The position numbers and the translations under genes are program-made. Shown one piece after another: positions 30,333 to 48,391 of a stretch of 64,000 nucleotides of DNA. Source of the stretch: an uncultured Thermoproteaceae archaeon (lineage in GTDB: Archaea; Thermoproteota; Thermoprotei; Thermoproteales; Thermocladiaceae); assembly GCA_964575955.1 (NCBI GenBank), contig CAZNTG010000006.1, positions 512,001-576,000 of the forward strand. Direction: 5' to 3'. Each line of letters starts with the position of its first letter. The first letter of the stretch is position 1. A model generated the notes under the pieces. The model saw only the letters and a program-made list of their open reading frames with translations, was not told where the DNA came from and searched no databases.

Positions 30333-30881
30333 ATGCTAATACAGGCTGATGATTCAATACTAGTAATAATAGACGTTCAGGAAAAGCTGTTTAACGTAGT
30401 TCTAAATAGAGAAATAATGCTTAAAAATATACTAAAGCTAGTCAAAGTGTGTAAGATACTTAACATACCTATAGTAATTACAGAACAATATCCAAAAGGT
30501 ATGGGTAAGACAGTTAGAGAACTTGTTGAAGAACTCGGTCAATACTATAGACCTATAGAGAAGACAACTTTCAGCTGTTTTAGAACTGAAACATTTGTAA
30601 AAGAGCTGGAGCGTATTGGTAGAAAAACACTACTACTAGTAGGAATAGAACTTCACATATGTGTCTACCAGACAGCTATAGATGCTCTAGAAAGAGGATA
30701 TCATCCAGTAGTTATTTATGATGCAACATCATCAAGATTGGAGAAAGATTATGAAATATGTCTAAACAGGTTAATTATGAAGAATGTAGATGTAGCAACA
30801 ACAGATATGATAATCTTCGAACTTTTAAAAGATGCTTCAGATCCAAGATTTAAAGAGATCTTAAAAATAGTTAAAGAATAG
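30333..30881 (+). CDS. Isochorismatase-family cysteine hydrolase
   Basis: IIDVQEKL, TEQYPKGMG, EKTTFSC, GIELHICVYQT. Confidence 0.92.
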   Translation: MLIQADDSILVIIDVQEKLFNVVLNREIMLKNILKLVKVCKILNIPIVITEQYPKGMGKTVRELVEELGQYYRPIEKTTFSCFRTETFVKELERIGRKTLLLVGIELHICVYQTAIDALERGYHPVVIYDATSSRLEKDYEICLNRLIMKNVDVATTDMIIFELLKDASDPRFKEILKIVKE

Positions 30882-30902
30882 TAAAATCAATAGCAGTAAG
30901 GT

Positions 30903-31967
30903 ATGAATATACTTGACATAATTAGAAACTACTCACTAAAAGATATATCAATAGCAGTACTTGCAAGTCATTCAGCATTACAAATATTGAAAGGTGCTAG
31001 AGATGAAAATTTAAGAACTCTATTAATAGTTGAGAAAGATAGACTTGAATTATATGAAGAATTTAGTAATCTAGTTGATAAGTTTTTTATAGTTGAAAAA
31101 TTTAGAGATATTACGAAGATAGTAGATTTATTGAGAAAAGAAAATGCAATACTTATACCACATGGAAGCTCTGTCGAATATGTAGGCTCTGAAACATTTC
31201 TAAACATGCCAATACCAGTATTCGGAAATAGAAAGTTGATGATCTGGGAGAGTAGTCAGAAATTGAAGATGAAATTGCTTAGAGAAGCTGGAATTAAAGT
31301 TCCTAAAGAGTATAGTATAGAGGATGAGATTGATAGACCTGTAATTGTAAAACTTCCAGGAGCTAAAGGTGGTAAATATTTCTTTATAACAAACTCTAGA
31401 GAAGAGATTATTAGAAGAATTGAGAATTATGTTAAAAGTGGTATAGTTAACAATATTGAAGATGTATTAATACAGGAATATGTTATTGGAGTTCCAATGT
31501 ATTTTCACTACTTCTATAGTCCAATGTTTAACAGAGTTGAGATTTTGGGTATAGATATTAGATATGAGACAAATATTGATGGTCTTAAGAGATTTCCACT
31601 AATAGACAAGGTTAGTGTAGAACCAACATTTATAGTTGTTGGTAACATACCTGTAGTTATTAGAGAGAAGATGCTTCAAATAGTATTGAAGTATGGTAAG
31701 ATGTTTGTTGAAAAGAGTAGAGAACTTATACCACCAGGAGCTATAGGTCCATTTTGTCTTGAGAGTATTGTTGTTGATGATAATAATGTAGTTGTATTTG
31801 AGTTTAGTGGTAGAATTGTTGCAGGTACAAACATATACATTGGTTATGGTAGTCCTTATGGTTGGCTTTATTGGAATGAGCCTATGTACATGGGTAGGAG
31901 AATATGTAGAGAGATTAAGATAGCGTGTGAGAGAGGAATAAGGAATCTCGAGCTAATTCTTACATAG
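30903..31967 (+). CDS. purP: Formate--phosphoribosylaminoimidazolecarboxamide ligase (PurP family, ATP-grasp)
   Basis: ASHSALQI..GA, PHGS, GAKGG, RYETNIDG, GPFCLE, FEFSGRIVAGTN. Confidence 0.92.
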   Translation: MNILDIIRNYSLKDISIAVLASHSALQILKGARDENLRTLLIVEKDRLELYEEFSNLVDKFFIVEKFRDITKIVDLLRKENAILIPHGSSVEYVGSETFLNMPIPVFGNRKLMIWESSQKLKMKLLREAGIKVPKEYSIEDEIDRPVIVKLPGAKGGKYFFITNSREEIIRRIENYVKSGIVNNIEDVLIQEYVIGVPMYFHYFYSPMFNRVEILGIDIRYETNIDGLKRFPLIDKVSVEPTFIVVGNIPVVIREKMLQIVLKYGKMFVEKSRELIPPGAIGPFCLESIVVDDNNVVVFEFSGRIVAGTNIYIGYGSPYGWLYWNEPMYMGRRICREIKIACERGIRNLELILT

Positions 31968-31974
31968 CATAGTC

Positions 31975-31982
31975 TTTATATT
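31975..31982 (+). promoter_or_regulatory. TATA box of the nitrogenase-like operon (leaderless)
   Basis: TTTATATT about 24 nt upstream of ATG 32006, the same spacing as other leaderless genes here. Confidence 0.55.
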
Positions 31983-32005
31983 TTTTCTAAAAGAAACCTA
32001 CCTAT

Positions 32006-32878
32006 ATGAAGAAGATAGCTATATATGGCAAGGGTGGTATTGGTAAATCTACAATATCTACAAACATTGCAGCTGCACTCGCAGAAATGGGTCTCAAGGT
32101 GATGGTTGTAGGATGCGATCCTAAGACTGACTGCACCAGAAATCTCCATGGTGGTAAGATGATTAAACCACTACTTGAATATATGAGAGAGCTTGGTCTT
32201 TCTGAAGTTGATGTTTCAGAAATTATCACAGGTAAACAGATAACTCTAGAAGGATTGATTGAGAATAATGTTATTGTTAGAGGTTATAGAGATGTTATAT
32301 GTATAGAGGTTGGAGGCCCTGAACCAGGAATTGGATGTGCAGGTCGTGGAATAATACTTGGAATAGAAACATTGCAAAAAGTTGGAATATTCAACTACTT
32401 CAAACCTGACATAACAATATTTGACGTTCCCGGAGATATTGTATGTGGAGGTCTTGCGATGCCATTAAGAAGAGGATTTGCAGATCAGGTTTACATAGTT
32501 ACAAGTGCTGAATATCTACCACTACACGCAGCTAACAATCTACTCAAAGCTATTAAGAGATTTGCAAATAGAGGAGGTTCAAAACTTGGAGGTATAATAT
32601 ACAATGCTCGTGGACATATTGATAGACCTGAAATTGTAGAAAAATTTGCAGAAATTACAGGAACATCAGTAATATATAAGATACCAAAACTTCCAGAAAT
32701 TGTAGAGGCTGAAAGTAAGGCTAAGACAGTTATAGAGTATGCACCTGAAAGTTATGCAGCTAAAATTTTCAGAGAGCTAGCATATAAAATAGTGAACAAC
32801 AATAGACAAGATATTCCAAGACCATTAAAAAGTGAGGAACTTCATAAACTATATGTACAATATGTTGAACAACTATGA
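32006..32878 (+). CDS. Nitrogenase Fe protein homolog (NifH/NflH-like)
   Basis: YGKGGIGKST, GCDPK.D, EVGGPEPGIGCAGRGI (Cys97/Arg100 equivalents), DVPGDIVCGGLAMP (Cys132 equivalent), AANN, KLGGIIYN. Confidence 0.97.
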   Translation: MKKIAIYGKGGIGKSTISTNIAAALAEMGLKVMVVGCDPKTDCTRNLHGGKMIKPLLEYMRELGLSEVDVSEIITGKQITLEGLIENNVIVRGYRDVICIEVGGPEPGIGCAGRGIILGIETLQKVGIFNYFKPDITIFDVPGDIVCGGLAMPLRRGFADQVYIVTSAEYLPLHAANNLLKAIKRFANRGGSKLGGIIYNARGHIDRPEIVEKFAEITGTSVIYKIPKLPEIVEAESKAKTVIEYAPESYAAKIFRELAYKIVNNNRQDIPRPLKSEELHKLYVQYVEQL

Positions 32879-34320
32879 AAATCATAAACATACCATACGT
32901 ATCAGAAATTGCAAGTAAGATAACAGAAGCATTTCCATTTCACAATGCAGCATGTATAGATGGTAAAATACTTGGAGCATTATGGGCAATATACCAAATC
33001 CGTAATGTTTTACCTATAATTCATGGACCTATAGGATGTAGTTGGCAGAGAAAGTTTGCATTAATGGGTTCAGAAATACATTATTGGACTCCATGTACTG
33101 CATGGTCAGAAACTGAAGTTGTTTATGGTGGTGAGGAGAAACTTTACAAAGCTATAGTTGAAGCTTATGAAAAATTTAAACCAAAGATGATAGTTGTATT
33201 GACTACATGTGCATCAGACATGGTTGGTGATGATGTTGAATATGTTGTAGATAGAGCTAGAAAAGTTGTAAAATGTCCAATAGTATACTCAACAGGAGAT
33301 AAAGTTGGAAAAACTAGACAAGTAGGTTCACAAGACGTTCTATATAGCATAGTTGAACAATACGTAGTACCAAACTGTGAAAATGTAGAAATTGAAGATG
33401 GTACAGTGAACTTGATGACTATAGGTGGTGAGTATAGTAGAAGTATTGTTACAGAGCTAGAGGGAGTTTTAAAAGCTGCTGGATTGAGAGTAAACAAGAT
33501 ATATTTCGAAGATAGAGAAGTTGAAGAATTGTTAGAACTTGCTAAAGTTAGGGTTAACGTTGTACCATACTACCAAGTATGGGCTAGATATCTATCAGAT
33601 GTTAAAGGAGTTAGAGATTTTGTATTGATAAACTTTGAAGAGTACGATCTCGAAAAAGCATATCCATTAGGTTATGAAGCAGCAATAAATAAGATATTTG
33701 AAATATGTAAATTAGCTAATGTAGAACCTGACGAGAAATCTCTAGAAAGATTTTATAAACCAATGTTAGATAGATTTGAGAAAATTAAGCGTAGAGTTAG
33801 TGGATTGAAAGTATGTATTGAAAATGATTGGGGTACATGTATGTTATTTGCACTTAAACTTGGATTAAAGATTGAAGCATTAGTATTTTGGACAGAGCAG
33901 TATAGAGGTCATGGATATAGTGAATCTAGTATAAAAATGATGATTGATGGATATGTACAATACTTGAGACAGTATGGTCAAGATCCTGAAGTTATAGTAG
34001 ATGAGAAATTTGAAAATGTTATAGATAAAATTAAGAGGAGAAATATTGATCTAGTAATTACAGGATGGTGGAGCAAACCATTTAAATATCATAAAAATGG
34101 TGTAGTTGCAATATCTTCAAGAAATCTAAAACTATTCTTTGAATTTGGCCTAACACCACTCATAAATGCTGGAGAAGTTTTAATAAAGAAGATAGAGAAA
34201 GGAATACCAACAAATCCTGTAGTAGATATTGAAATTAATGAGAAACTTCCATATCTATCAAAAAGATGGGGTGAGCTAACACTACTATTTCACTTGAATA
34301 GATATGAAAAACCTGAGTGA
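32875..34320 (+). CDS. Nitrogenase component 1 alpha-like subunit (NifD/NifE/NflD-like)
   Basis: IHGPIGC, E.EVVYGGEEKL..AI, TTCASDMVGDDV; ATGA overlap with the nifH-like gene. Confidence 0.92.
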   Translation: MKIINIPYVSEIASKITEAFPFHNAACIDGKILGALWAIYQIRNVLPIIHGPIGCSWQRKFALMGSEIHYWTPCTAWSETEVVYGGEEKLYKAIVEAYEKFKPKMIVVLTTCASDMVGDDVEYVVDRARKVVKCPIVYSTGDKVGKTRQVGSQDVLYSIVEQYVVPNCENVEIEDGTVNLMTIGGEYSRSIVTELEGVLKAAGLRVNKIYFEDREVEELLELAKVRVNVVPYYQVWARYLSDVKGVRDFVLINFEEYDLEKAYPLGYEAAINKIFEICKLANVEPDEKSLERFYKPMLDRFEKIKRRVSGLKVCIENDWGTCMLFALKLGLKIEALVFWTEQYRGHGYSESSIKMMIDGYVQYLRQYGQDPEVIVDEKFENVIDKIKRRNIDLVITGWWSKPFKYHKNGVVAISSRNLKLFFEFGLTPLINAGEVLIKKIEKGIPTNPVVDIEINEKLPYLSKRWGELTLLFHLNRYEKPE

Positions 34321-35638
34321 GAATATGAATCTTATAGATCCAGTTCATGATTGTAGACTTGTTGGTGTTGTTCGTGCTGTGACTGGTATTCATGATTGTG
34401 CATTGATAATTCATGGAAGACCTGGATGCCATAGCGGACCTCTAGGACTTCAATCACAAACTTCAAGTCAAAGATATGTAAATGTTGTATATAGTGGACT
34501 TAGAAGTGAAGAGATGGTTACAGGAGGTGAAAAGAGGTTAAAGTTAGCTATTGAAAATGTGTATAAAGTTATGAAACCCAAACTCATAGTTGTTGCATCA
34601 GCATCTGCTGCAGGTATTATGGGTGATGATGTTGATGGAGTTATAGGCGAAATATCTAGTAGTGTAAAATGTAGAATAGTTCACATATCTGCATGTGGAT
34701 ATTCAGGTCCTGAATGGACGGGATATGAAGATGCGCTAGTGAAAATAGTTGAAACAGTTTTGGAAGAGTATAAATCTAGACAAAGTTTTGAGAAGACTAA
34801 GAATAGAATATCAATAGTCGGCTTCCATCCTGATGAACCATTCTGGAGAGGTGATCTACAGGAACTTATAAATATACTTAAAGAAATACTCAATGTAGAT
34901 ATTAGTGTAGTCTTAAATTGGTGTTCTATAGAAGAAATATCAAATATAGTAAATAGCGATCTTGTAGTAGTTCTTGGTGGTGATGGTTTGAGTGTTGCAG
35001 ATTATTTAAAGAAAAATTTCAACATAGAATACATAGTAACACCATACCCAATAGGAATTAAGAATACTATAGACATGATATATAGTATAAGCTCTAAACT
35101 AGGTATTGATATTAATACAAAGAAGTTAGAAGCTTATGAAAAATATGTTAGAGACATTATAGAAGATTTTCAAACATATGTTGAAGGTATTTACGGAAAT
35201 GTTAGGTGTGTCATAGTTGGTGAAAGCTCTAGAGCATTTAGTTTAGCAAATTTCTTACTAAATGAGTTAGATTTCGATATTGAATATATCGGTATTAGAA
35301 GTAGAAACTATGTAACAGATAGTGAATTGTTAAAATGGAAGAATTCAGAAATTCTAAATGATAGATATGAACTTTATAAAAAGATCTTGGAAATATCTCC
35401 AGAGGTAGTATATGGTTCAACATTTGAGAGAGATATAGCATTGAGATGTGGATGTGCACTAGTTAGATATTGCTACCCAACTCTAGATAGAGTATACATG
35501 AGTGATAGAACTATAGTTGGATTTAGAGGAGCAATAACATTAATAGAAGAAACTATAAATGAGATGTTAAATATGCAAGAAAAGACAGAACTTGCATATC
35601 TATCAAAGATGAATGATACAAAACTACTTGAGAGATGA
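34304..35638 (+). CDS. Nitrogenase component 1 beta-like subunit (NifK/NifN-like)
   Basis: DP..DC...G, IHGRPGC, EMVTGGEKRL..AI, IMGDDV, PYPIGIKNT, GSTFE, YP..DR...RTIVGFRGA. Confidence 0.92.
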   Translation: MKNLSENMNLIDPVHDCRLVGVVRAVTGIHDCALIIHGRPGCHSGPLGLQSQTSSQRYVNVVYSGLRSEEMVTGGEKRLKLAIENVYKVMKPKLIVVASASAAGIMGDDVDGVIGEISSSVKCRIVHISACGYSGPEWTGYEDALVKIVETVLEEYKSRQSFEKTKNRISIVGFHPDEPFWRGDLQELINILKEILNVDISVVLNWCSIEEISNIVNSDLVVVLGGDGLSVADYLKKNFNIEYIVTPYPIGIKNTIDMIYSISSKLGIDINTKKLEAYEKYVRDIIEDFQTYVEGIYGNVRCVIVGESSRAFSLANFLLNELDFDIEYIGIRSRNYVTDSELLKWKNSEILNDRYELYKKILEISPEVVYGSTFERDIALRCGCALVRYCYPTLDRVYMSDRTIVGFRGAITLIEETINEMLNMQEKTELAYLSKMNDTKLLER

Positions 35639-35684
35639 TGTAAAATCCGGTTCGCTGATATATGACGAAAAGGCCCGTATCTGA
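35635..35684 (+). ncRNA. Box C/D methylation guide sRNA (probable 16S rRNA targets)
   Basis: ATGATGT-AAAATCCGGTTCG-CTGA-TAT-ATGACGA-AAAGGCCCGTAT-CTGA; the first guide is complementary to conserved 16S CGAACCGGAUU. Confidence 0.88.
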
Positions 35685-36026
35685 CTAAAATTCTACCTCT
35701 ATACTCACTAATGTATATAGTCCAAATCTTATGAGTGTGTTTTTCATCAATGTTATCTCACTAATTCTGTAGGGTATGCCATTTTCTATTATGTATGTAC
35801 CATTTTTACTTCCAAGATCTTTCAATACTATGTTACTACCTTCCTGAAATATAGATGCGTGTTTTCTAGATACTGATGGGTCTGGTATTATTATTGTATT
35901 TTCTGGACTTCTACCTATAGTTATTTCTCTAAATGATTGTATATGTATATAGAGTTCGTATCCACATAGTTTTTGTAGGGTTGTTTCTATAAACTTAATT
36001 TTGAGTAGTGGTTTTGGTATATGCAT
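35685..36026 (-). CDS. Stand-alone FHA domain protein
   Basis: TIGRS..N, VSRKHA, DLGSKNGT. Confidence 0.92.
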   Translation of the reverse strand: MHIPKPLLKIKFIETTLQKLCGYELYIHIQSFREITIGRSPENTIIIPDPSVSRKHASIFQEGSNIVLKDLGSKNGTYIIENGIPYRISEITLMKNTLIRFGLYTLVSIEVEF

Positions 36027-36043
36027 ACTTAATCTTGATTATT

Positions 36044-38059
36044 CTATGTTGGTGTTGTTATTTGTCTTCTACGTCTTCTAGCTCTTGCTATAGCTATGGC
36101 TATTATTGCTATTATTGCAAATATTACACATATTATCTCAGGTAGGTGTTTATACATTATTGTTGTCATTGTTTCACCAATCTTTATATTTAGAGTTATC
36201 GATTTTACTAGTGTTGGTATGCTGTTAAGTCCATAGATTATGAATGGTTTTGGTGAGTATAATAACATCAATGTTGCATGATATATACCTACAGGTGTTG
36301 AACTATCTATCTCTAACAGATATGTCAATACTATAGTATCTCCTGGTCTTACCTCTCCAACATATATTTGATTTGCTGTCATTGCAGCTAGTGGATTGTT
36401 TTGTGGTACATGAAATGTCAATACTTTAGGTATTGATAATATTGCTTTAACATTTTCAAGAGTTGGCCCTCTAACATACTTTAGATATATTCTAAGTATT
36501 GCTCTACTAGATCCAGGGTAAAATCCTATCTCTTCAATTTTAACAACCTTGAACTCCGGTTTTGGAATTACTTTGAAAGTTACATAATAATCTTCATCAA
36601 CATCACAGTAATGTACGTTAATCTTCAAAATATATGTTCTAGGTGTAACATTATCAGGTACATTAAACATGAACTGTATTGGTATTGGCTTTCCAGGTGG
36701 TACTGCTGGTAATGTTATACTAGTCATATTTGGTGTATATGTTGAAAATTCTCTAGGCAATACTAGTCTAATAGTTACATTTTTTGCAATAACACTTCCA
36801 ACATTTACAATACTTACATTAAGTCTAATACCATTCATTCCGGGTGTTGCTATTGGTGGCATTGGTATTGCATATGCTACTCTAATCTTTGGTGAATATA
36901 TTACAATCTTCACAGTATGGACTTCTCTAACATGATCATACATGAATATAACCTGTATTGGATACTTACCTCCAGATATGTTCTGCAATGTCGATACTAT
37001 AAACGTTACCGGTATCTCTCTACCAGCAGTTACAACACCAATATTCTTACATAGAAGACCTGAACCTTTAAGTGGCTTTTCAAGTCTTATACATACGGTT
37101 AAGTTATCTATAGCTGATGTTGGTATAAACATTACTGTTAGAGGAATTTTACTATATCCAGGACCTACAGAAAATACCTTTCCTGGAAATCCCCAATATG
37201 CTGTGACAGCACTAAACTTAACCTCAGGAATACATAATCTAAATGATGTATTTAAAGTCCATGTAACACCAATACCATACTTAACAAATAGTTTTTCAGA
37301 ATAACAACCACCAGTAACATTATTGTAGAGATTTACTAGGTATGTTAATGTTATTGGTTTTCCTGGAGGTAATGCAGGTAGTGTAATGTTTAGATATTTA
37401 ACAATCTTCCCATTCTTAGTTGCATAGATTGGATATGATAATTTTAGTTGTATTGTCACATTTTCTAGAATTGATGTACCACTATTCATAACTATGATTG
37501 TTAATGGTATATTCTTCATTCCCGGTCCAACAATTTGATAGTTTTTATATCCGAGATATGCACCTAGAACCTGTATTCCTGAAGTTCCTATTATTGGAAG
37601 CTTTTGTGTATATTCTAAATGTTCATGTGTACAGTATTGACCTCTTTGAGTAACTATGCATATGTAGTAGTATGTTTCAATTTTGAAATCTTTAAATCCT
37701 GTAGATACTGTTGGAGGAATTCTCAAGTAGAATATACATGTACTATTCATTCCTGGAGCCATATATGGTATTTTACATATCTGTACACCACTAAACCACT
37801 CAATATTATCTGGAAGTTCTAACCATACTCTAACATCTTTGAAATAGAATTTTACACCTGATATGTTAGGTATGACTATTCCTACCTTGAGAATTGCAAG
37901 ACTTGTTCCTGGGCTTGGAACTTTAGGTTCTAGCCAATATGCGTAGACTATTGGAGTTATCTCACTCGTACTAACTGTCTGACAATGTACAACTTCAAGC
38001 CCTACCACTGATATTATCAGTGTAAGTGTTATAAGCAATATCTTGACTACTCTACTCAT
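36044..38059 (-). CDS. Surface-anchored protein with repeated Ig-like domains (COG1361/S-layer-domain-like)
   Basis: Signal peptide; repeated N.G...NVTI.L and LPA.PPGKPI motifs; many NxT sequons; C-terminal TM helix plus RRRRR tail. Confidence 0.8.
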   Translation of the reverse strand: MSRVVKILLITLTLIISVVGLEVVHCQTVSTSEITPIVYAYWLEPKVPSPGTSLAILKVGIVIPNISGVKFYFKDVRVWLELPDNIEWFSGVQICKIPYMAPGMNSTCIFYLRIPPTVSTGFKDFKIETYYYICIVTQRGQYCTHEHLEYTQKLPIIGTSGIQVLGAYLGYKNYQIVGPGMKNIPLTIIVMNSGTSILENVTIQLKLSYPIYATKNGKIVKYLNITLPALPPGKPITLTYLVNLYNNVTGGCYSEKLFVKYGIGVTWTLNTSFRLCIPEVKFSAVTAYWGFPGKVFSVGPGYSKIPLTVMFIPTSAIDNLTVCIRLEKPLKGSGLLCKNIGVVTAGREIPVTFIVSTLQNISGGKYPIQVIFMYDHVREVHTVKIVIYSPKIRVAYAIPMPPIATPGMNGIRLNVSIVNVGSVIAKNVTIRLVLPREFSTYTPNMTSITLPAVPPGKPIPIQFMFNVPDNVTPRTYILKINVHYCDVDEDYYVTFKVIPKPEFKVVKIEEIGFYPGSSRAILRIYLKYVRGPTLENVKAILSIPKVLTFHVPQNNPLAAMTANQIYVGEVRPGDTIVLTYLLEIDSSTPVGIYHATLMLLYSPKPFIIYGLNSIPTLVKSITLNIKIGETMTTIMYKHLPEIICVIFAIIAIIAIAIARARRRRRQITTPT

Positions 38060-38157
38060 ACAGCTTACGTTAGCATTTCCATATTATAAACATTACTTGT
38101 TAGACATGTACTACATGTCCTATACGTACTACATATATACCTCTACACTGTACTGTA

Positions 38158-39591
38158 GTGAAGATGAGTAAAATTAAGGTAACTAGAGGCTACATGATCA
38201 GGATTACCATAGTCCTATCATTGTTAGCTATGTTAGCTATGTATACTGAAACTATGATTCTTCCAGCATTTCCAAGATTGATGCATGAATTTCATGTTAG
38301 AGAATCAGACATAGCTTGGATACTTACAGCATATCTACTCAGTGGTGTAGCATCTACGCCACTAATGGGAAAATTTAGCGATATTTATGGTAGAAAGAAG
38401 ATTCTACTGATAGTATTGACAATATACGCTATTGGACTTACAGCATGTGGATTATCACACTCATTTCCATCACTAATACTCTCAAGAGCTATCCAAGGCT
38501 TTGGAATGGCAATGTTTCCAATAGCGTTTAGCATTGTTAGAGAACAACTTCCAATGGAGATGGTTCCATTAGCACAAGGTATGATTAGTGCTATGTTTGG
38601 TATTGGTGCAATTATTGGTCTTGTGATAGGTTCACATATAATTCAGTGGTACGGTTGGAGAACACTATTTCACACAGCTGCAATACTTGCATGGACTTTA
38701 ATACCTGTAGAACACTTTCTCATAGAGGAGAAGTATAGACCTCCAATAAAGGCTAAAGTTGACTATGTAGGAATAATGTTGATATCTGTAGGAACAACAT
38801 TACTATGCTACGCTTTTGAATCAGCAGCACATTATGGATGGACTAGCAGTTCTGTAATTGCATCAATAATTTCAGGATTAATATGCTATATAGCATTCAT
38901 AGAGTGGGAAAGATATACACCAGAACCTGTAGTACCACTATCAAGACTTAGAGAAATAAACGTTCTAGTTAGTAATCTTGCAGGTGCTGTTGCTGGACTT
39001 GGAATGTTCATGTTCTTTCAAGTATTTGTAATATATCTACAACTACCAAAACCTGCTGGTCTAGGCTTAACAATAGTAGAGACAGGGTACTACATGACAT
39101 TACCATCACTAGTCATGTTACTGACATCAGGAATGGTCGGCAGGATAATTCCAAAGATTGGTGTTAAAAAATCACTACTAATATCAGCAATATACTTATC
39201 AATTGCAGGTGCAATATTTCAACTAGTAAATCTATCAAGTCTATGGCAAGTAATTGCTGCATCATGTATTGTCATGTCAGCTATTGGAGCTCTACTAGTA
39301 AGTTTGATAAACCTACTAGTACTATCAGTACCTGTAGAAGAAGTTGGATTATTAACAGGAATAAACATGATTCTCAGATATGTAGGTGGTTCATTAGGAA
39401 CAGCACTTGGAGGATATCTTCAATCAACAATAACAACAACAGTACTATTCTACATGTTTGGAAAATTCATACCTATAACATTTGCATCACCAACAGTCGT
39501 TAAAATATCTATGCTAGTAGTAACAGGACTTGGAATACTAATATTCCTACTCTGCATTAAAGCAAAAGAGATATTTCAAAGAAGAGTTTGA
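38158..39591 (+). CDS. MFS transporter (EmrB/QacA-like)
   Basis: WILTAYLL, GKFSDIYGRK motif A, RAIQGFG, GWR..F; many TM segments. Confidence 0.93.
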   Translation: MKMSKIKVTRGYMIRITIVLSLLAMLAMYTETMILPAFPRLMHEFHVRESDIAWILTAYLLSGVASTPLMGKFSDIYGRKKILLIVLTIYAIGLTACGLSHSFPSLILSRAIQGFGMAMFPIAFSIVREQLPMEMVPLAQGMISAMFGIGAIIGLVIGSHIIQWYGWRTLFHTAAILAWTLIPVEHFLIEEKYRPPIKAKVDYVGIMLISVGTTLLCYAFESAAHYGWTSSSVIASIISGLICYIAFIEWERYTPEPVVPLSRLREINVLVSNLAGAVAGLGMFMFFQVFVIYLQLPKPAGLGLTIVETGYYMTLPSLVMLLTSGMVGRIIPKIGVKKSLLISAIYLSIAGAIFQLVNLSSLWQVIAASCIVMSAIGALLVSLINLLVLSVPVEEVGLLTGINMILRYVGGSLGTALGGYLQSTITTTVLFYMFGKFIPITFASPTVVKISMLVVTGLGILIFLLCIKAKEIFQRRV

Positions 39592-46129: not shown

Positions 46130-46615
46130 ATGGGTTGGGGAGGAGGTGGATGGGGAAGAGGTAGAGGAGGCGGTTGGGGTGGTGGCGGAGGATGGGGTGG
46201 AGGTTGGGGTAGAGGACGTGGTGGATGGGGTTGGGCACAGCCAATACCTCAAATGCCAACACTACCTCCACCACCTCCAGGTACTACTCGTGTTGTAGTA
46301 TCTGTTGAAAATAATGCAGGTCTTGACAGTGTTGTAGGTCCTAGATTTGGTAGATCTCCATACTTTGCTATAGTTGATATTTCTAATGGTAGAGTTGCAA
46401 ATGTGCAAATAATTCCTAATCCCTGTATAGACATGCCTCATGGTGTTGGTGTAGCTGTAGCACAGTGGATTTTGAGTATAGGTGCTAGATGCGTAATTGG
46501 TGCACACTTCGGACCTAACGTTCTCATGGTTCTACAACAGGCAGGTATTAGAGTATGTAATGTTCAGCCAGGTATTAGAGTTCAAGATGCGTTGAAAATA
46601 TGTGGACTACTATGA
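46130..46615 (+). CDS. NifB/NifX-family FeMo-cofactor-binding-domain protein with Gly/Trp/Arg-rich N-terminus
   Basis: RFGRSPYFAIVD, NP......GVG...AQ, HFGPN....LQQAGI; N-terminal GWG repeats and a poly-Pro linker. Confidence 0.85.
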   Translation: MGWGGGGWGRGRGGGWGGGGGWGGGWGRGRGGWGWAQPIPQMPTLPPPPPGTTRVVVSVENNAGLDSVVGPRFGRSPYFAIVDISNGRVANVQIIPNPCIDMPHGVGVAVAQWILSIGARCVIGAHFGPNVLMVLQQAGIRVCNVQPGIRVQDALKICGLL

Positions 46616-46649
46616 TAAACTTTTAGACATATCTAAAACTTGTTAAATT

Positions 46650-47522
46650 GTGATTAGAGAGATAGCAGTAGCAAGTGGTAAAGGTGGTACAGGGAAGACA
46701 TTCATAGCGTCAAACCTGCTATACTACATATCTAAGTATGTAGATGAGAAATGTGTTGGTGTTGATGCTGATGCAGAAGCACCAGACTTAGCATTAGCAC
46801 TTGGAGACTACGTTGAGATATATTCTAGAGATGATGTATATGAATCTAAGAAAGCAGTAATAGATTATGAAAAATGTAATCTATGTTTAAACTGCTACAA
46901 CACATGTAGATTCTATGCAATAAACATAGATTCTCAAGGAAGACCAACAATAGTTGAAGAATATTGTGAAGGATGTGGTGCATGTAGTCTAGTATGTACT
47001 TCAGATGCCATAAATTATAGAGTTGTAAAAACAGGAACTGTAATATTTGGAAAAACTAGACATGGACAGAAAGTAGTAACTGCAGATTTAGAAGTTTCAG
47101 GTAGAAATACAGGACATCTAGTGTATATTGCTAGAGAAAAAGCAAAATCAATACCTGAATTGAAATATGTGATAATAGATTCAGCACCTGGAATTGGATG
47201 TCCTGTAATATCTAGCATTGTAGGTTCAAACCTACTTATAATATGTGTAGAACCAACAGAACAATCATATAATGGTTGTAGAAGATTAATACAGGTAGCA
47301 CAGATATTGAAAGTAGATTATAGAGTAATTATAAATAAGTATGATATGAATATTGAAATGAGTAATAGAATTGAGAAAGAGATAGGAAATAATGTAATCG
47401 GAAGAATACCATATAGTAGAGATATAGTTAAATCATATGCAGATATGATACCTATAATGGCTACAAATTCAAAAATTAGAAAAGATTTAGAAGAAATATT
47501 TGAAGAAATTTTGAAACTATGA
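46650..47522 (+). CDS. MinD-superfamily P-loop ATPase with inserted ferredoxin domain (COG1149)
   Basis: SGKGGTGKT, DADAEAPD, two CxxCxxCxxxC, DSAPGIGCPV, INKYD. Confidence 0.92.
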   Translation: MIREIAVASGKGGTGKTFIASNLLYYISKYVDEKCVGVDADAEAPDLALALGDYVEIYSRDDVYESKKAVIDYEKCNLCLNCYNTCRFYAINIDSQGRPTIVEEYCEGCGACSLVCTSDAINYRVVKTGTVIFGKTRHGQKVVTADLEVSGRNTGHLVYIAREKAKSIPELKYVIIDSAPGIGCPVISSIVGSNLLIICVEPTEQSYNGCRRLIQVAQILKVDYRVIINKYDMNIEMSNRIEKEIGNNVIGRIPYSRDIVKSYADMIPIMATNSKIRKDLEEIFEEILKL

Positions 47523-48391
47523 TAATAGCAGTTGCAGGAGGTAAAGGTGGTGTTGGAAAGACAATAATTGCAAGTAATATAGCAATACTACTATCTAGAA
47601 TTGGAAAAACTATGATAATTGATGCTGATGTTGATAATCCATGTATTGAAAATACATTAAAAGTATTAAATATACAAGTATTGAAGATAGAGGAAGTATA
47701 TAGATTCAAACCTAGAATAATTATTGAAAAATGTGATCTCTGTAAGAAGTGTGTTGATACATGTCCTGAAAATGCTATAGTGATTATACCACAGATGAGA
47801 AATATATTCATAATAGATACACTATGTGCTGGATGTGGATGTTGTAAACTTGTATGTGATAGAGAAGCCATAGTTGAGGATAGGGAAATTGAAGGTACTG
47901 TGAAGATCTGTAAAGCGGGAACTATCGATCTAATTGTTGGAGAATTGAAACCAGGAGAAAAGAGGAGCTACATTGTCATGACAAAGATAATTGAAGGTTA
48001 TAGAGATCTATATAGAAATTATGACTATACAATAATTGATGCACCACCTGGAACAGGTGCTGGAGTATTTTCAATATTGAAAAATAGTGATATTCATATA
48101 ATAGTTACTGAAGCTACAAGATTAGGTTTTTCAGATTTTATGAAGATAATGAAGTTGAAGATTAGTAAAAATCTAAATCAGAAAACTATAGTTGTCATTA
48201 ATAAGTATGATCTCAATGTTGAGATTTCTAGAGAAATTGAAAATGAGGCTAGGAAAATTACAAACTACGTAGTCAGGATTCCATACTCTGATAATATTGC
48301 TAGAAGTTATATGATTGGAAAACCTATAGTTCTTGAAGATTTACCTGAAAAGAAGTATTTTGAAGATATTACTAAGATTATACTAAGCTAG
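47519..48391 (+). CDS. MinD-superfamily P-loop ATPase with inserted ferredoxin domain (second paralog)
   Basis: GGKGGVGKT, DADVDNP, two CxxCxxCxxxC, DAPPGTG, INKYD; ATGA overlap. Confidence 0.92.
   Translation: MIIAVAGGKGGVGKTIIASNIAILLSRIGKTMIIDADVDNPCIENTLKVLNIQVLKIEEVYRFKPRIIIEKCDLCKKCVDTCPENAIVIIPQMRNIFIIDTLCAGCGCCKLVCDREAIVEDREIEGTVKICKAGTIDLIVGELKPGEKRSYIVMTKIIEGYRDLYRNYDYTIIDAPPGTGAGVFSILKNSDIHIIVTEATRLGFSDFMKIMKLKISKNLNQKTIVVINKYDLNVEISREIENEARKITNYVVRIPYSDNIARSYMIGKPIVLEDLPEKKYFEDITKIILS

What the first reader, a model, noticed from the sequence alone, without database searches (positions are those of the whole stretch)
32006..35638. Complete nitrogenase-like HDK operon in a Thermoproteales-type crenarchaeon: candidate undescribed reductase
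Seen: three translationally coupled genes (ATGA overlap, then a 17-bp overlap) behind their own TATA box. They encode an intact NifH-type Fe protein (P-loop, both [4Fe-4S] Cys, Arg100 equivalent) and two different component-1 subunits. Known: characterised nitrogenase-fold systems are Nif/Vnf/Anf, DPOR/COR (BchLNB, BchXYZ), CfbCD (F430 synthesis, one D-type subunit) and MarBHDK. In archaea they are associated mainly with methanogens and their relatives, and I know of none described in Thermoproteales. This window has no nifB/EN, cfb, bch or mcr context. Inference: a group IV-like, ATP-driven low-potential reductase with a heteromeric catalytic component and a new substrate (tetrapyrrole, organosulfur or nitrile-type). 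Its AT-rich codon style matches the neighbouring housekeeping genes and no mobility genes flank it, which suggests long residence.
Basis: partly seen in the sequence, partly recalled or inferred. Interest (0 to 1): 0.95.

Follow-up and report, generated by a model that had tools for sequence, protein, structure and literature searches.

The report
Uncharacterised nitrogenase-like reductase operon in Thermoproteales
An uncultured hot-vent archaeon carries an intact three-gene operon for a nitrogenase-like, ATP-driven reductase that belongs to a small, unstudied branch of that enzyme family otherwise seen mainly in methane-oxidising archaea, so its substrate is unknown but is probably not nitrogen gas.

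Summary
Window 32006-35638 encodes three overlapping genes: an intact NifH-type Fe protein (H) and two different component-1 subunits (D, K). A TATA-like box lies 25 bp upstream.

The operon is native. Its codon use matches its neighbours. Both flanks are syntenic in another species of the genus. Contigs from a second study bridge the purP/H and H/D junctions.

D and K fall far below the cut-offs for Nif, Vnf, Anf, NifEN, DPOR, COR and CfbD, and they are remote from solved MarDK. The genome (94.7% complete) shows no nifB, no mcrA and no second copy.

D belongs to a small clade: 23 hits at E<=1e-30 among 1.84 billion representatives. Its sister group is from ANME/Methanosarcinales MAGs. In the order Thermoproteales the family was found in 6 of 6 other genomes of the window's genus and in 0 of 55 genomes of other genera.

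Conserved Cys are D55, D74 and D112 and K17 and K42. No conserved Cys or His marks a second cofactor site. I therefore infer a simple inter-subunit Fe-S cluster that reduces an organic substrate directly, as in DPOR, COR and CfbCD.

Relatives sit beside FecBCD-type importers and SAM methyltransferases. That hints at a tetrapyrrole or metal-chelate substrate, but the hint is weak. I rate it a new variant of a known kind, of moderate to high interest.

The parts
31975..31981 (+). TATA-like box (TTTATAT) 25 bp upstream of the H start codon, consistent with a leaderless archaeal transcript
   Evidence: Sequence read. No transcript data are available (one search lists no RNA run), so promoter function is inferred.
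32006..32878 (+). H: NifH-type Fe protein (290 aa). P-loop at residues 8-15; cluster ligands Cys111 and Cys147; Arg114
   Evidence: PF00142 at 300.8 bits. NF009701 at 358.4 bits against a cut-off of 350. Best PDB match is MarH 9fmg_D at 245.7 bits, with NifH 1cp2 at 239 bits. Motif positions.
32875..34320 (+). D: alpha-type component-1 subunit (481 aa). Family-conserved Cys55, Cys74 and Cys112; Cys27 occurs only in the window's subclade
   Evidence: PF00148 at 153.4 bits. All NCBIfam equivalogs are far below their cut-offs. Cys conservation. Tree placement. AlphaFold model has pLDDT 84.5.
34304..35638 (+). K: beta-type component-1 subunit (444 aa, or 437 aa if it starts at 34325). Invariant Cys17 and Cys42; Ala100 where NifK has Cys153
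   Evidence: PF00148 at 241.8 bits. Alignment A1 has invariant C10 and C35 in P0001 numbering. The offset to A. vinelandii NifK comes (query 10-115 aligned to chain 63-167).

Best explanation
This is a functional, natively encoded operon for a two-component nitrogenase-like (NFL) reductase. It belongs to a small, uncharacterised clade.

Shown:
- H has every sequence feature of an ATP-hydrolysing Fe protein with a subunit-bridging [4Fe-4S] cluster.
- D and K are two different PF00148 subunits.
- The family conserves D-Cys55, D-Cys74, D-Cys112, K-Cys17 and K-Cys42.
- No further Cys or His is conserved in D.
- No nifB was found in the genome.

Inferred mechanism:
- An H2 dimer docks on a D2K2 tetramer.
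- ATP hydrolysis drives single electrons from the H cluster to one Fe-S cluster at the D/K interface. That cluster is [4Fe-4S]-like, or at most P-like.
- The electrons then pass directly to an organic substrate bound in the cavity that holds FeMo-co in nitrogenase. This is how DPOR, COR and CfbCD work.
- N2 is not the substrate.

Most likely substrate class (weak inference, about 0.35-0.4): a metallated tetrapyrrole or another metal-chelate or cofactor precursor, possibly tailored further by a class I SAM methyltransferase.

Origin: the operon was gained by, or kept only in, one uncultured Thermoproteales genus. It shares ancestry with multi-copy NFL clusters of ANME archaea.
For: Intact genes and motifs.

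Native locus:
- Codon use matches the neighbours.
- Genome G406 has isochorismatase-purP-H-D' at 70-80% identity.
- Loci L006 and L020 have D-K-FHA-secreted protein-MFS.
- A 19.9-kb contig of run X1 spans 30800-36200 with no differences.
- 12 contigs of run X2, from another study, match at >=99%. They include pieces across purP/H (31923-32127) and H/D (32780-32971).

Distinct clade:
- D has 970 hits at E<=1e-3 but only 23 at E<=1e-30 among 1.84 billion representatives.
- The family is a 35-row clade with SH-aLRT 100. The Thermoproteota subclade (10 rows, 100) is sister to an ANME/Methanosarcinales subclade (15 rows, 88).
- True CfbD (463 bits against a cut-off of 268) sits on a branch of length 3.0, away from the family.
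- Of 20 neighbouring representatives, 1 passes any NCBIfam cut-off.

Simple cluster:
- Invariant or near-invariant residues of D include C55, C74 and C112, with no Cys or His after residue 134.
- K keeps C17 and C42 and has Ala at the position of NifK Cys153.
- The nifB model TIGR01290 gives 0 matches in the genome.

Context in relatives:
- 7 of 11 ANME/Methanosarcinales loci hold Peripla_BP_2 and/or FecCD genes.
- 7 of 11 hold the same class I methyltransferase cluster (Pfam checked on representatives only).
- One paralogue of the window's genus (L008) has all of these.

Own genome: it encodes HemB, CbiC, CobS and a Peripla_BP_2/FecCD/ABC set. The methyltransferase is present in 6 of 6 other genomes of the genus and in 0 of 24 genomes of the family's other genera.
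Against: - The window's own operon has no transporter, methyltransferase or tetrapyrrole gene beside it. Its neighbours are purP, an isochorismatase, an FHA protein, a secreted protein and an MFS transporter.
- FecBCD-type importers also carry siderophores. The methyltransferases are class I, not the TP_methylase type used on tetrapyrrole carbons.
- Other paralogues sit beside CODH/hydrogenase/nitroreductase genes, or beside CDF plus Dpp-type ABC genes. The context is therefore heterogeneous.
- The genus-level co-occurrence with the methyltransferase reflects one lineage, so it counts as one event.
- ISR, a sulfonate reductase, also has a reduced Cys set (review section 9.4). 'Few ligands' does not by itself imply a tetrapyrrole.
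- The window's subclade has six Cys near the interface (D27, D55, D74, D112, K17, K42), so a P-like cluster is not excluded.
- No expression data exist.
- I could not place the clade against named reference sequences of groups IV-A, IV-D, IV-E, IV-F and VI.
Confidence: 0.6

Rival explanations
1. It is a Mar- or Isr-like organosulfur reductase. It would cleave C-S bonds of methylthio-alkanes or sulfonates to obtain sulfur or carbon.
For: The best solved matches of H and K are R. rubrum MarH (245.7 bits) and MarK (86.8 bits) (PDB identities from the review). Like Isr, the system lacks some P-cluster Cys and the L-cluster ligands (review section 9.4).
Against: - D scores only 43.4 bits against MarD. 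That is below all 150 listed hits of the exhaustive search, which score >=61 bits.
- MarK barely beats AnfK, 86.8 against 86.4 bits.
- No nifB/marB was found.
- The Cys pattern differs from Isr. Isr has D88 plus K70, K95 and K153. This system has D88, D154 and a family-specific D74, plus K70 and K95.
- No sulfur-metabolism genes lie beside any of the 22 related loci that I clustered.
- The source is labelled a hydrothermal vent metagenome, where I would not expect sulfur to be limiting (my assumption).
Confidence: 0.12
2. It processes an imported metal chelate that is not a tetrapyrrole, such as a siderophore or metallophore. It might release the metal reductively or help build such a compound.
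For: Peripla_BP_2/FecCD/ABC importers flank relatives in 7 of 11 ANME loci and in L008. A CDF exporter and a Dpp/Nik-type ABC system flank paralogue L009.
Against: No NFL enzyme with such a role appears in the 2026 review that I read in part. No metallophore-synthesis genes were recognised in the loci. The window's operon has no transporter beside it.
Confidence: 0.15
3. It is a true or alternative nitrogenase (Nfa-like) that fixes N2.
For: H scores 348.6 bits on the NifH model, and the genes come as an HDK set.
Against: - NifH is below its cut-off (348.6 against 394).
- The nifD model gives 67 bits against 654, and nifK gives 83 bits against 427.
- No nifB, nifE or nifN was found.
- No Cys or His is conserved where a cofactor would bind.
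Confidence: 0.02
4. It is a CfbCD-type enzyme of F430 synthesis, or a remnant of one.
For: H scores 315 bits on the CfbC model. The relatives are in methane-metabolising archaea.
Against: - CfbC scores 315 against a cut-off of 402, and CfbD scores 64-66 against 268.
- There are two different catalytic subunits, not one.
- No mcrA was found.
- True CfbD of other Thermoproteota lies on a separate long branch.
Confidence: 0.03
5. It is an assembly or binning artefact, or a decaying relic without function.
For: The genome is a 15-contig draft, and no RNA run is listed.
Against: - The window's contig (C6) is 621,363 bp long.
- The frames are intact, and the family is conserved in all 7 genomes of the genus.
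- Both flanks are syntenic in another species.
- Contigs from an independent study bridge two junctions.
- Codon use is native.
Confidence: 0.03

Closest known systems
DPOR (BchLNB/ChlLNB) and COR (BchXYZ), group V nitrogenase-like tetrapyrrole reductases
   Same: Both have three genes: one Fe protein and two different component-1 subunits. Both appear to have an inter-subunit cluster with fewer than six Cys, no cofactor site and no NifB. The inferred mechanism is the same, with direct reduction of a bound organic substrate.
   Different: H is much closer to NifH, MarH and CfbC than to BchL or BchX (349 bits against 176-188 bits). D and K score 37-117 bits on BchN, BchB, BchY and BchZ models whose cut-offs are 324-529. 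The host is not phototrophic. D has a family-specific Cys74.
CfbCD (group IV-B, F430 synthesis)
   Same: Both are archaeal, have a group-IV-type Fe protein, appear to use a simple [4Fe-4S] cluster and do not depend on NifB.
   Different: CfbD is a homodimer of about 360 aa. This system has two different subunits of 481 and 444 aa. Scores are far below the cut-offs. No mcrA was found. The two lie on separate long branches of the tree.
Methylthio-alkane reductase MarBHDK (group IV-C; PDB 9D9U, 9FMG)
   Same: Both have an HDK architecture. MarH and MarK are the best-scoring solved relatives of H and K.
   Different: MarD scores only 43 bits. Mar has a full P-cluster, an L-like cluster and MarB (review). 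This system has no nifB-like gene and no conserved cofactor ligands.
Unnamed NFL gene clusters of ANME-1/ANME-2 MAGs (Methanophagales and Methanosarcinales records, loci L012-L018, L021-L023, L027)
   Same: They belong to the same D, K and H family. K is 35-37% identical. D forms the sister subclade. The one ANME H tested (L018) passes NF009701, as the window's H does.
   Different: Their gene order is D-K-H, not H-D-K. They often have 2-3 tandem sets of two types. They are flanked by FecBCD-type importers and class I methyltransferases. The window has one set with unrelated housekeeping or uncharacterised neighbours. I found no paper that describes these clusters.
Group VI NFL of Elusimicrobia (Meheust et al. 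2020)
   Same: Both lack NifB and cofactor ligands, keep only part of the P-cluster Cys set, and are proposed to act on a tetrapyrrole or cofactor.
   Different: Group VI NifH branches next to group V and is about 40% identical to NifH. The window's H scores as a group-IV/NifH-like protein. No radical-SAM genes flank the window's operon or the related loci. I had no group VI sequences for a direct test.

Membership tests
Nitrogenase superfamily / NFL two-component reductases | Fe protein of family PF00142 with a P-loop and two cluster Cys | tested here: met
   300.8 bits. GKGGIGKS at residues 8-15, Cys111 and Cys147.
Nitrogenase superfamily / NFL two-component reductases | One or two PF00148 component-1 subunits encoded beside the Fe protein | tested here: met
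   D scores 153.4 bits and K 241.8 bits. The genes overlap.
NF009701 (PRK13230) 'nitrogenase reductase-like protein' subfamily | Score at or above the curated cut-off of 350 bits | tested here: met
   H scores 358.4 bits. The ANME relative L018 H scores 421.8 bits.
Nif/Vnf/Anf nitrogenase | D and K pass the nifD/vnfD/anfD and nifK/vnfK/anfK equivalog cut-offs | tested here: not met
   nifD 67 against 654; nifK 83 against 427; vnfK 112 against 874; NifH 348.6 against 394.
Nif/Vnf/Anf nitrogenase | Cofactor ligands (NifD Cys275 and His442) and NifB in the genome | tested here: not met
   No Cys or His is invariant or near-invariant in D after residue 134. TIGR01290 gives 0 matches in a genome that is 94.7% complete. 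The mapping to A. vinelandii numbering is inferred.
CfbCD (group IV-B) | Passes TIGR03282 (CfbD) and NF033200 (CfbC); single catalytic subunit; occurs with mcr | tested here: not met
   CfbD scores 64-66 against 268, and CfbC 315 against 402. There are two different subunits. PF02249 gives 0 matches.
DPOR/COR (group V) | Passes the BchL/BchX, BchN/BchY and BchB/BchZ equivalog cut-offs | tested here: not met
   BchL 176 against 345; BchX 188 against 331; BchB 117 against 490; BchN 39 against 420.
MAR (group IV-C) | Close kinship to MarD and MarK; MarB; P-cluster and L-cluster ligands | tested here: not met
   MarD 43.4 bits and MarK 86.8 bits. No nifB-like match. K lacks the Cys153 equivalent. 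D has no conserved C-terminal Cys or His.
ISR (group IV-F) | IsrB present. Cys pattern of NifD-88 plus NifK-70, 95 and 153 (review section 9.4) | tested here: inconclusive
   The Cys pattern differs: D has the 88 and 154 equivalents plus Cys74, and K has the 70 and 95 equivalents. I had no Isr sequence to test kinship. IsrB is too unlike NifB for the nifB model to exclude it.
Group VI NFL | NifH branch next to group V; radical-SAM neighbours | tested here: inconclusive
   H scores like NifH and CfbC, not like BchL. No radical-SAM genes were recognised nearby. No group VI reference sequences were available.
Groups IV-A (Nfa), IV-D and IV-E as drawn in published trees | Placement inside the named clade on a tree with the published reference set | not testable with these tools
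The review names the groups but gives no member that I could fetch.

The most novel reading that the evidence does not exclude
The operon is one copy of a previously unrecognised nitrogenase-like family. The family uses a simple Fe-S cluster with a family-specific Cys (D-Cys74) and needs no NifB. It would reduce a metal-tetrapyrrole or other cofactor-like metal chelate.

The module, perhaps together with a class I methyltransferase, would have moved between ANME-type methane oxidisers and a non-methanogenic Thermoproteales genus. If so, an undescribed modified cofactor or metallophore exists in both.
Probability: 0.25. Interest if true: 0.85.

Novelty: new variant of a known kind. Interest (0 to 1): 0.6.

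Why it matters
Nitrogenase-like enzymes do chemically hard, ATP-driven reductions. Each branch characterised so far has revealed a new reaction: chlorophyll ring reduction, F430 ring closure, and C-S cleavage that releases ethylene and methane.

The 2026 review by North and Shafaat names the many uncharacterised branches as the field's main open problem. It also notes that genome context has helped little.

This operon gives that problem a compact test case.
- It is a single H-D-K set in a small 1.5-Mb genome.
- The genome has no nifB, no methanogenesis genes and no paralogues to confuse genetics or biochemistry.
- The proteins come from a likely thermophile, so they may be stable.

It also links a Thermoproteales genus to the multi-copy clusters of ANME archaea. 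There the same family sits with importers and methyltransferases, so an answer here would carry over to uncultured methane oxidisers.

Tried and rejected
I could therefore not get names for P0002-P0014. I used the record titles from the search for related loci instead.

Searches that told nothing either way:
- Expression: the look-up of sequencing runs listed no RNA holder.
- Fold search: the AlphaFold model of D (pLDDT 84.5) matches NifD, NifK, MarD, VnfK, ChlN, BchB and NifE chains all at TM 0.51-0.59 and 13-19% identity. Structure does not discriminate between the families.
- The ESM Atlas returned only generic 'nitrogenase component 1' clusters.

Reads:
- Bins 35506-35867 had no cover in run X2, so the K/FHA junction has no independent contig support.
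- Run X3 covers 4 of 30 bins.
- One 'joint' in run X1 has 21-letter sides and 11 kb of other sequence between them. I treat it as a chance match.

Own-genome context:
- The regions around the methyltransferase (C6:172k), the O-methyltransferase with a Peripla_BP_2 fragment (C7:40-42k) and the FecBCD-type set (C3:40-44k) showed nothing related to cofactors.
- The NifX-like gene with two MinD-ferredoxin ATPases, 10.5 kb downstream, looked like a possible accessory set. However, PF02579 occurs in 60 of 62 genomes of the order, so I do not link it to the operon.
- An 'empty site' test failed. In genomes G411 and G410 purP lies beside Cbf5 in a rearranged context. In other genera the two purP paralogues are in tandem. 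No clean insertion site can therefore be read.

Methyltransferase homologues: the word-based search reached only 8 close relatives. It cannot say whether the ANME methyltransferases are the nearest outgroup.

Not done:
- I did not run complex prediction. D with K is a textbook pair that would pass by likeness to solved structures.
- I built no H tree and no concatenated HDK tree. K was treed only within the FastTree run.
- The scan for sigma-70 promoters was not used, because the organism is an archaeon.
- Supplementary files of papers were not opened. The reference sets of North 2020, Meheust 2020 and Dong 2022 that define groups IV-A to F and VI may already contain members of this clade.

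Literature, and what I saw of each paper:
- PMC13474568: outline, passages, and sections 58 and 59.
- 10.1101/765248: passages.
- PMC9012536, PMC9391474, PMC13274591, PMC3512248 and PMC11237513: passages.
- All others: search listings only.
- The claim that no NFL system is described in Thermoproteales rests on searches. The claim about the ANME clusters rests on searches.

Full report
**What is there**

Window 32006-35638 holds three co-oriented ORFs: H (32006-32878, 290 aa), D (32875-34320, 481 aa) and K (34304-35638, 444 aa).
- H matches PF00142 at 300.8 bits. D and K match PF00148 at 153.4 and 241.8 bits.
- The H stop and the D start share ATGA.
- K can start at 34304, which gives a 17-bp overlap with D. 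It can also start at the in-frame ATG at 34325, 4 nt after the D stop, which is the start of the public gene call (P0001, 437 aa). Relatives have N-termini of either length, so I leave this open.
- purP ends at 31967. In the 38-bp gap, TTTATAT lies at 31975-31981, 25 bp before the H start. That spacing is expected for a leaderless archaeal mRNA. Promoter use is inferred.
- H carries the P-loop GKGGIGKS (residues 8-15), Cys111 in GCAGRG, Arg114, and Cys147 in VCGG.

**Is it native and real?**
- GC3 of H, D and K is 0.18-0.19, against 0.14-0.26 for ten neighbouring genes. Codon-frequency correlation with those neighbours is 0.90-0.92, the same as between the housekeeping genes.
- The genome (G000) has 1.52 Mb in 15 contigs and is 94.7% complete. 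The window lies on contig C6, which is 621,363 bp long.
- In another species of the genus (G406), one contig reads isochorismatase-purP-H-D', with 70%, 71%, 79% and 64% protein identity.
- A second contig of G406 (L006) continues D-K-FHA protein-secreted protein-MFS-two further genes. L020, from a third species, shows the same downstream order.
- One 19,861-nt contig of run X1 spans 30800-36200 without a difference. X1 may be the source sample.
- Run X2, from another study, gives 12 contigs at >=99% identity over 26 of 30 bins. They include pieces across the purP/H gap (31923-32127) and the H/D junction (32780-32971).

A chimeric join is therefore very unlikely. The K/FHA junction has no independent contig, but it is supported by synteny.

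**What it is not**

Scores on the curated models:
- H reaches 358.4 bits on NF009701 ('nitrogenase reductase-like protein', cut-off 350).
- H misses NifH (348.6 against 394), CfbC (315 against 402), BchX (188 against 331) and BchL (176 against 345).
- D and K miss every equivalog by a wide margin: nifD 67 against 654, nifE 81-97 against 505, nifK 83 against 427, BchB 74-117 against 490, BchN 37-39 against 420, CfbD 33-64 against 268.

Whole-genome searches:
- PF00148 finds only D and K.
- PF00142 finds H plus two weak P-loop matches of 32 and 19.5 bits.
- mcrA (PF02249) gives 0 matches.
- nifB (TIGR01290) gives 0 matches.
- The CfbD model hits only D and K, both below its cut-off.

Solved structures:
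- H matches R. rubrum MarH best (245.7 bits). Classical NifH chains follow closely at 239 bits.
- K matches MarK (86.8), AnfK (86.4) and VnfK (83.9) about equally.
- D matches a NifEN fusion best (97.5 bits, N-terminal 200 residues). It matches MarD at only 43.4 bits.
- The identities of 9D9U and 9FMG come from the review.
- A good AlphaFold model of D (pLDDT 84.5) is equally similar to Nif, Vnf, Mar, DPOR and NifEN chains, at TM 0.51-0.59.

**What family it is**
- An exhaustive HMMER search of 1.84 billion representatives with D gives 970 hits at E<=1e-3, 185 at 1e-10 and only 23 at 1e-30. Scores drop from about 124 bits to about 100 bits, where NifEN-like and other NFL proteins begin.
- A word-based search with K finds 13 relatives at 36-55% identity, besides the gene's own record and two matches at 25%.
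- I scanned 20 representatives spread over the first tree against NCBIfam. One passes a cut-off: P0207, in the nitrogenase alpha subfamily.
- Two members of the neighbouring clade reach at most 72 bits on any solved structure.
- In an IQ-TREE of 54 D-type proteins (quick search, LG+C20, SH-aLRT), the window's D lies in a 35-row clade with support 100.
- Inside that clade, ten Thermoproteota rows form a clade (100). It is sister to fifteen rows that include 11 sequences from ANME/Methanosarcinales/Methanophagales MAG records plus unnamed representatives (88).
- The next clade out (8 rows) holds a second NFL type, which is also encoded in the same ANME loci.
- Proteins that I verified as true CfbD (463 and 444 bits against 268) sit on a branch of length 3.0.
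- H tells the same story. Its nearest relatives are Thermoproteota proteins (62-80% identity). Methanophagales proteins follow (53-57%), then Methanococcales 'nitrogenase iron protein' paralogues (51-52%).
- An ANME H also passes NF009701, at 421.8 bits.

The system is therefore a member of a small, coherent and uncharacterised NFL clade with a group-IV-type Fe protein. I could not test whether this clade equals one of the published but uncharacterised subgroups (IV-D, IV-E). Reference sequences and supplements were not available.

**Distribution**
- In a sample of 401 Thermoproteota genomes, 13 have a match to the K profile at E<=1e-10, counting G000.
- Six of the 13 are weak matches in family f19. 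The two that I checked are CfbD.
- Four are a more distant NFL pair in family f22.
- One (G374, family f43) is a close relative, and one (G248) is fragmentary.
- Within the order, with all 62 genomes searched, the family is in 6 of 6 other genomes of the window's genus. It is in 0 of 24 genomes of the other four genera of the family, and in 0 of 31 genomes of the two other families. Of the 62 genomes, 37 are >=90% complete.
- All eleven Thermoproteota loci found in the named collection appear to be contigs of those same six genomes. Their ORF lengths and HMM scores are identical.
- Several of these genomes hold two or three D-K pairs.

The pattern fits a gain at the base of the genus, with later duplications, or repeated loss elsewhere. 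The tree does not give the direction of transfer relative to ANME archaea.

**Cluster ligands**

In D:
- Across 17-21 family members, Cys55 (in HGPxGC) and Cys74 (in PCT) are invariant.
- Cys112 (in TTCxSDxxGDD) is near-invariant.
- Cys134 is present in 16 of 20.
- Cys27 is present in only 5 of 19, including the window's subclade.
- HMMER alignments put Cys55 and Cys112 on the cluster Cys of NifE and NifD-type chains.
- The offset of the A. vinelandii NifD alignment (query 32 aligned to chain 67) puts Cys27 at position 62.

In K:
- Cys17 and Cys42 are invariant.
- With the A. vinelandii NifK offset (query 10 aligned to chain 63) they fall on Cys70 and Cys95.
- The Cys153 position is Ala100 in the window, and Ala or Ser in 11 of 14 relatives.

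No Cys or His is invariant or near-invariant in D after residue 134. I therefore see no ligand pair for an M- or L-type cofactor. This agrees with the absence of nifB.

The mapping to nitrogenase numbering is partly inference. It rests on alignment offsets and on motif context that I recalled. The role of Cys74 is unknown. One solved 'nitrogenase alpha chain' (9p1x_A) also has Cys there.

**Mechanism (inferred)**
- An H2 dimer binds MgATP and docks on D2K2.
- It passes one electron per cycle to an inter-subunit Fe-S cluster.
- That cluster reduces a substrate held in the cavity that houses FeMo-co in nitrogenase.
- This is the DPOR/COR/CfbCD scheme (review PMC13474568, passages).
- The window's subclade has six Cys near the interface, so a P-like cluster cannot be excluded.

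**Substrate**

The window itself gives no clue. The neighbours are PCNA, Pus10, Cbf5, acetyl-CoA synthetase, an isochorismatase-family protein, PurP, an FHA protein, a 671-aa secreted protein, an MFS transporter and enolase.

Relatives give hints:
- I clustered 228 ORFs of 22 related loci and the window.
- 7 of 11 ANME/Methanosarcinales loci carry Peripla_BP_2 and/or FecCD genes, and 7 of 11 carry one cluster of class I SAM methyltransferases. Pfam was checked on representatives only.
- Several of these loci hold two or three NFL sets in the order D-K-H.
- In the window's genus, paralogue L008 lies beside a double Peripla_BP_2 protein, FecCD and an ABC ATPase, with the same methyltransferase 6 kb away.
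- Paralogue L007 follows CODH, Ech-like hydrogenase subunits, a ferredoxin and a nitroreductase.
- Paralogue L009 lies beside a CDF exporter and a Dpp/Opp-type ABC system.

The window's own genome:
- It encodes HemB, CbiC, CobS and a Peripla_BP_2/FecCD/ABC set elsewhere.
- It also encodes that methyltransferase, at 51% identity to the L008 copy.
- The methyltransferase is found in 6 of 6 other genomes of the genus, in 0 of 24 genomes of the family's other genera, and in 2 of 29 genomes of family f2 at 28% identity.
- This co-occurrence reflects one lineage and is weak evidence.

Together these points favour a metal-tetrapyrrole or other metal-chelate or cofactor substrate. I put that at about 0.35-0.4. 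Against it stand three points: the contexts are heterogeneous, the methyltransferases are of the general class I type, and Isr shows that a reduced Cys set also occurs in a sulfonate reductase.

**Comparison and novelty**

The system works like DPOR, COR and CfbCD, but it fails the membership tests for all of them and for Nif, Vnf, Anf and Mar. Kinship to Isr, Nfa, group VI and the unnamed subgroups could not be tested with reference sequences.

Literature searches:
- Searches for nitrogenase-like genes together with Thermoproteota, Crenarchaeota or Thermoproteales found no description of such a system there.
- Searches for the ANME clusters found only general statements. These were that group IV nifH homologues abound in seeps and are poorly characterised, and that ANME-1 group IV genes were assumed to serve F430 synthesis.

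I rate it a new variant of a known kind. Interest is moderate to high because it offers a clean, single-copy, nifB-free model for an unstudied NFL branch that is shared with uncultured methane oxidisers. Uncharacterised NFL clades are already recognised as common, and nothing here establishes a new reaction.

Noticed in passing
window 46130-48391: A PF02579 (NifX/'dinitrogenase FeMo-cofactor' domain) protein is followed by two MinD/CbiA-type ATPases with an inserted 2x[4Fe-4S] ferredoxin domain. The set lies 10.5 kb downstream of K. PF02579 occurs in 60 of 62 genomes of the order, so it is not tied to the operon.
   Followed up: yes
L013, L016, L018, L021, L023, L027 (ANME/Methanosarcinales/Methanophagales MAG records): These loci hold two or three tandem NFL gene sets in the order D-K-H, of two different types. 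They are flanked by Peripla_BP_2 proteins (one with a dockerin domain), FecCD permeases, ABC ATPases, class I SAM methyltransferases, an O-methyltransferase and a PNPOx-like protein. I found no paper describing these clusters.
   Followed up: partly
L007 8533-11293; L008 8550-11290; L009 1-2393 (other species of the window's genus): These are extra D-K pairs without an adjacent Fe-protein gene. One follows CODH, Ech-like hydrogenase subunits, a ferredoxin and a nitroreductase. One lies beside a Peripla_BP_2/FecCD/ABC importer. One lies beside a CDF exporter and a Dpp/Opp-type ABC system. One H may serve several DK pairs.
   Followed up: partly
G000:C6:172122-172973 (outside the window) and its homologues: A class I SAM methyltransferase of the same BLAST cluster as those beside ANME NFL sets. 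It is present in 6 of 6 other genomes of the genus and in 0 of 24 genomes of the family's other genera. This is the same phyletic pattern as the NFL genes.
   Followed up: partly
L030-L033 (four genomes of Thermoproteota family f22, genus g65): A more distant NFL pair (K-profile E about 1e-51 to 1e-56). Its D-like match lies in an open frame of 720-740 aa, so it may be a fusion. It is not in the window's clade on the D tree.
   Followed up: no
L021 7520-8368: The second-type Fe protein of one ANME-related MAG has Gly where the first cluster-ligand Cys should be (GVGGAGRG). This may be a sequencing error or an inactive copy.
   Followed up: no
window 35685-39591: An FHA-domain protein, a 671-aa secreted or membrane-anchored protein with an NPCBM_assoc domain and an MFS transporter lie directly downstream of K. 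Their order is conserved in two other species. The MFS protein is 88% identical, far more than D and K at about 52%.
   Followed up: partly
window 30903-31967 and G000:C7:32111-33136: There are two purP paralogues (43% identical). They lie in tandem in the other genera of the family but on different contigs in this genus.
   Followed up: partly
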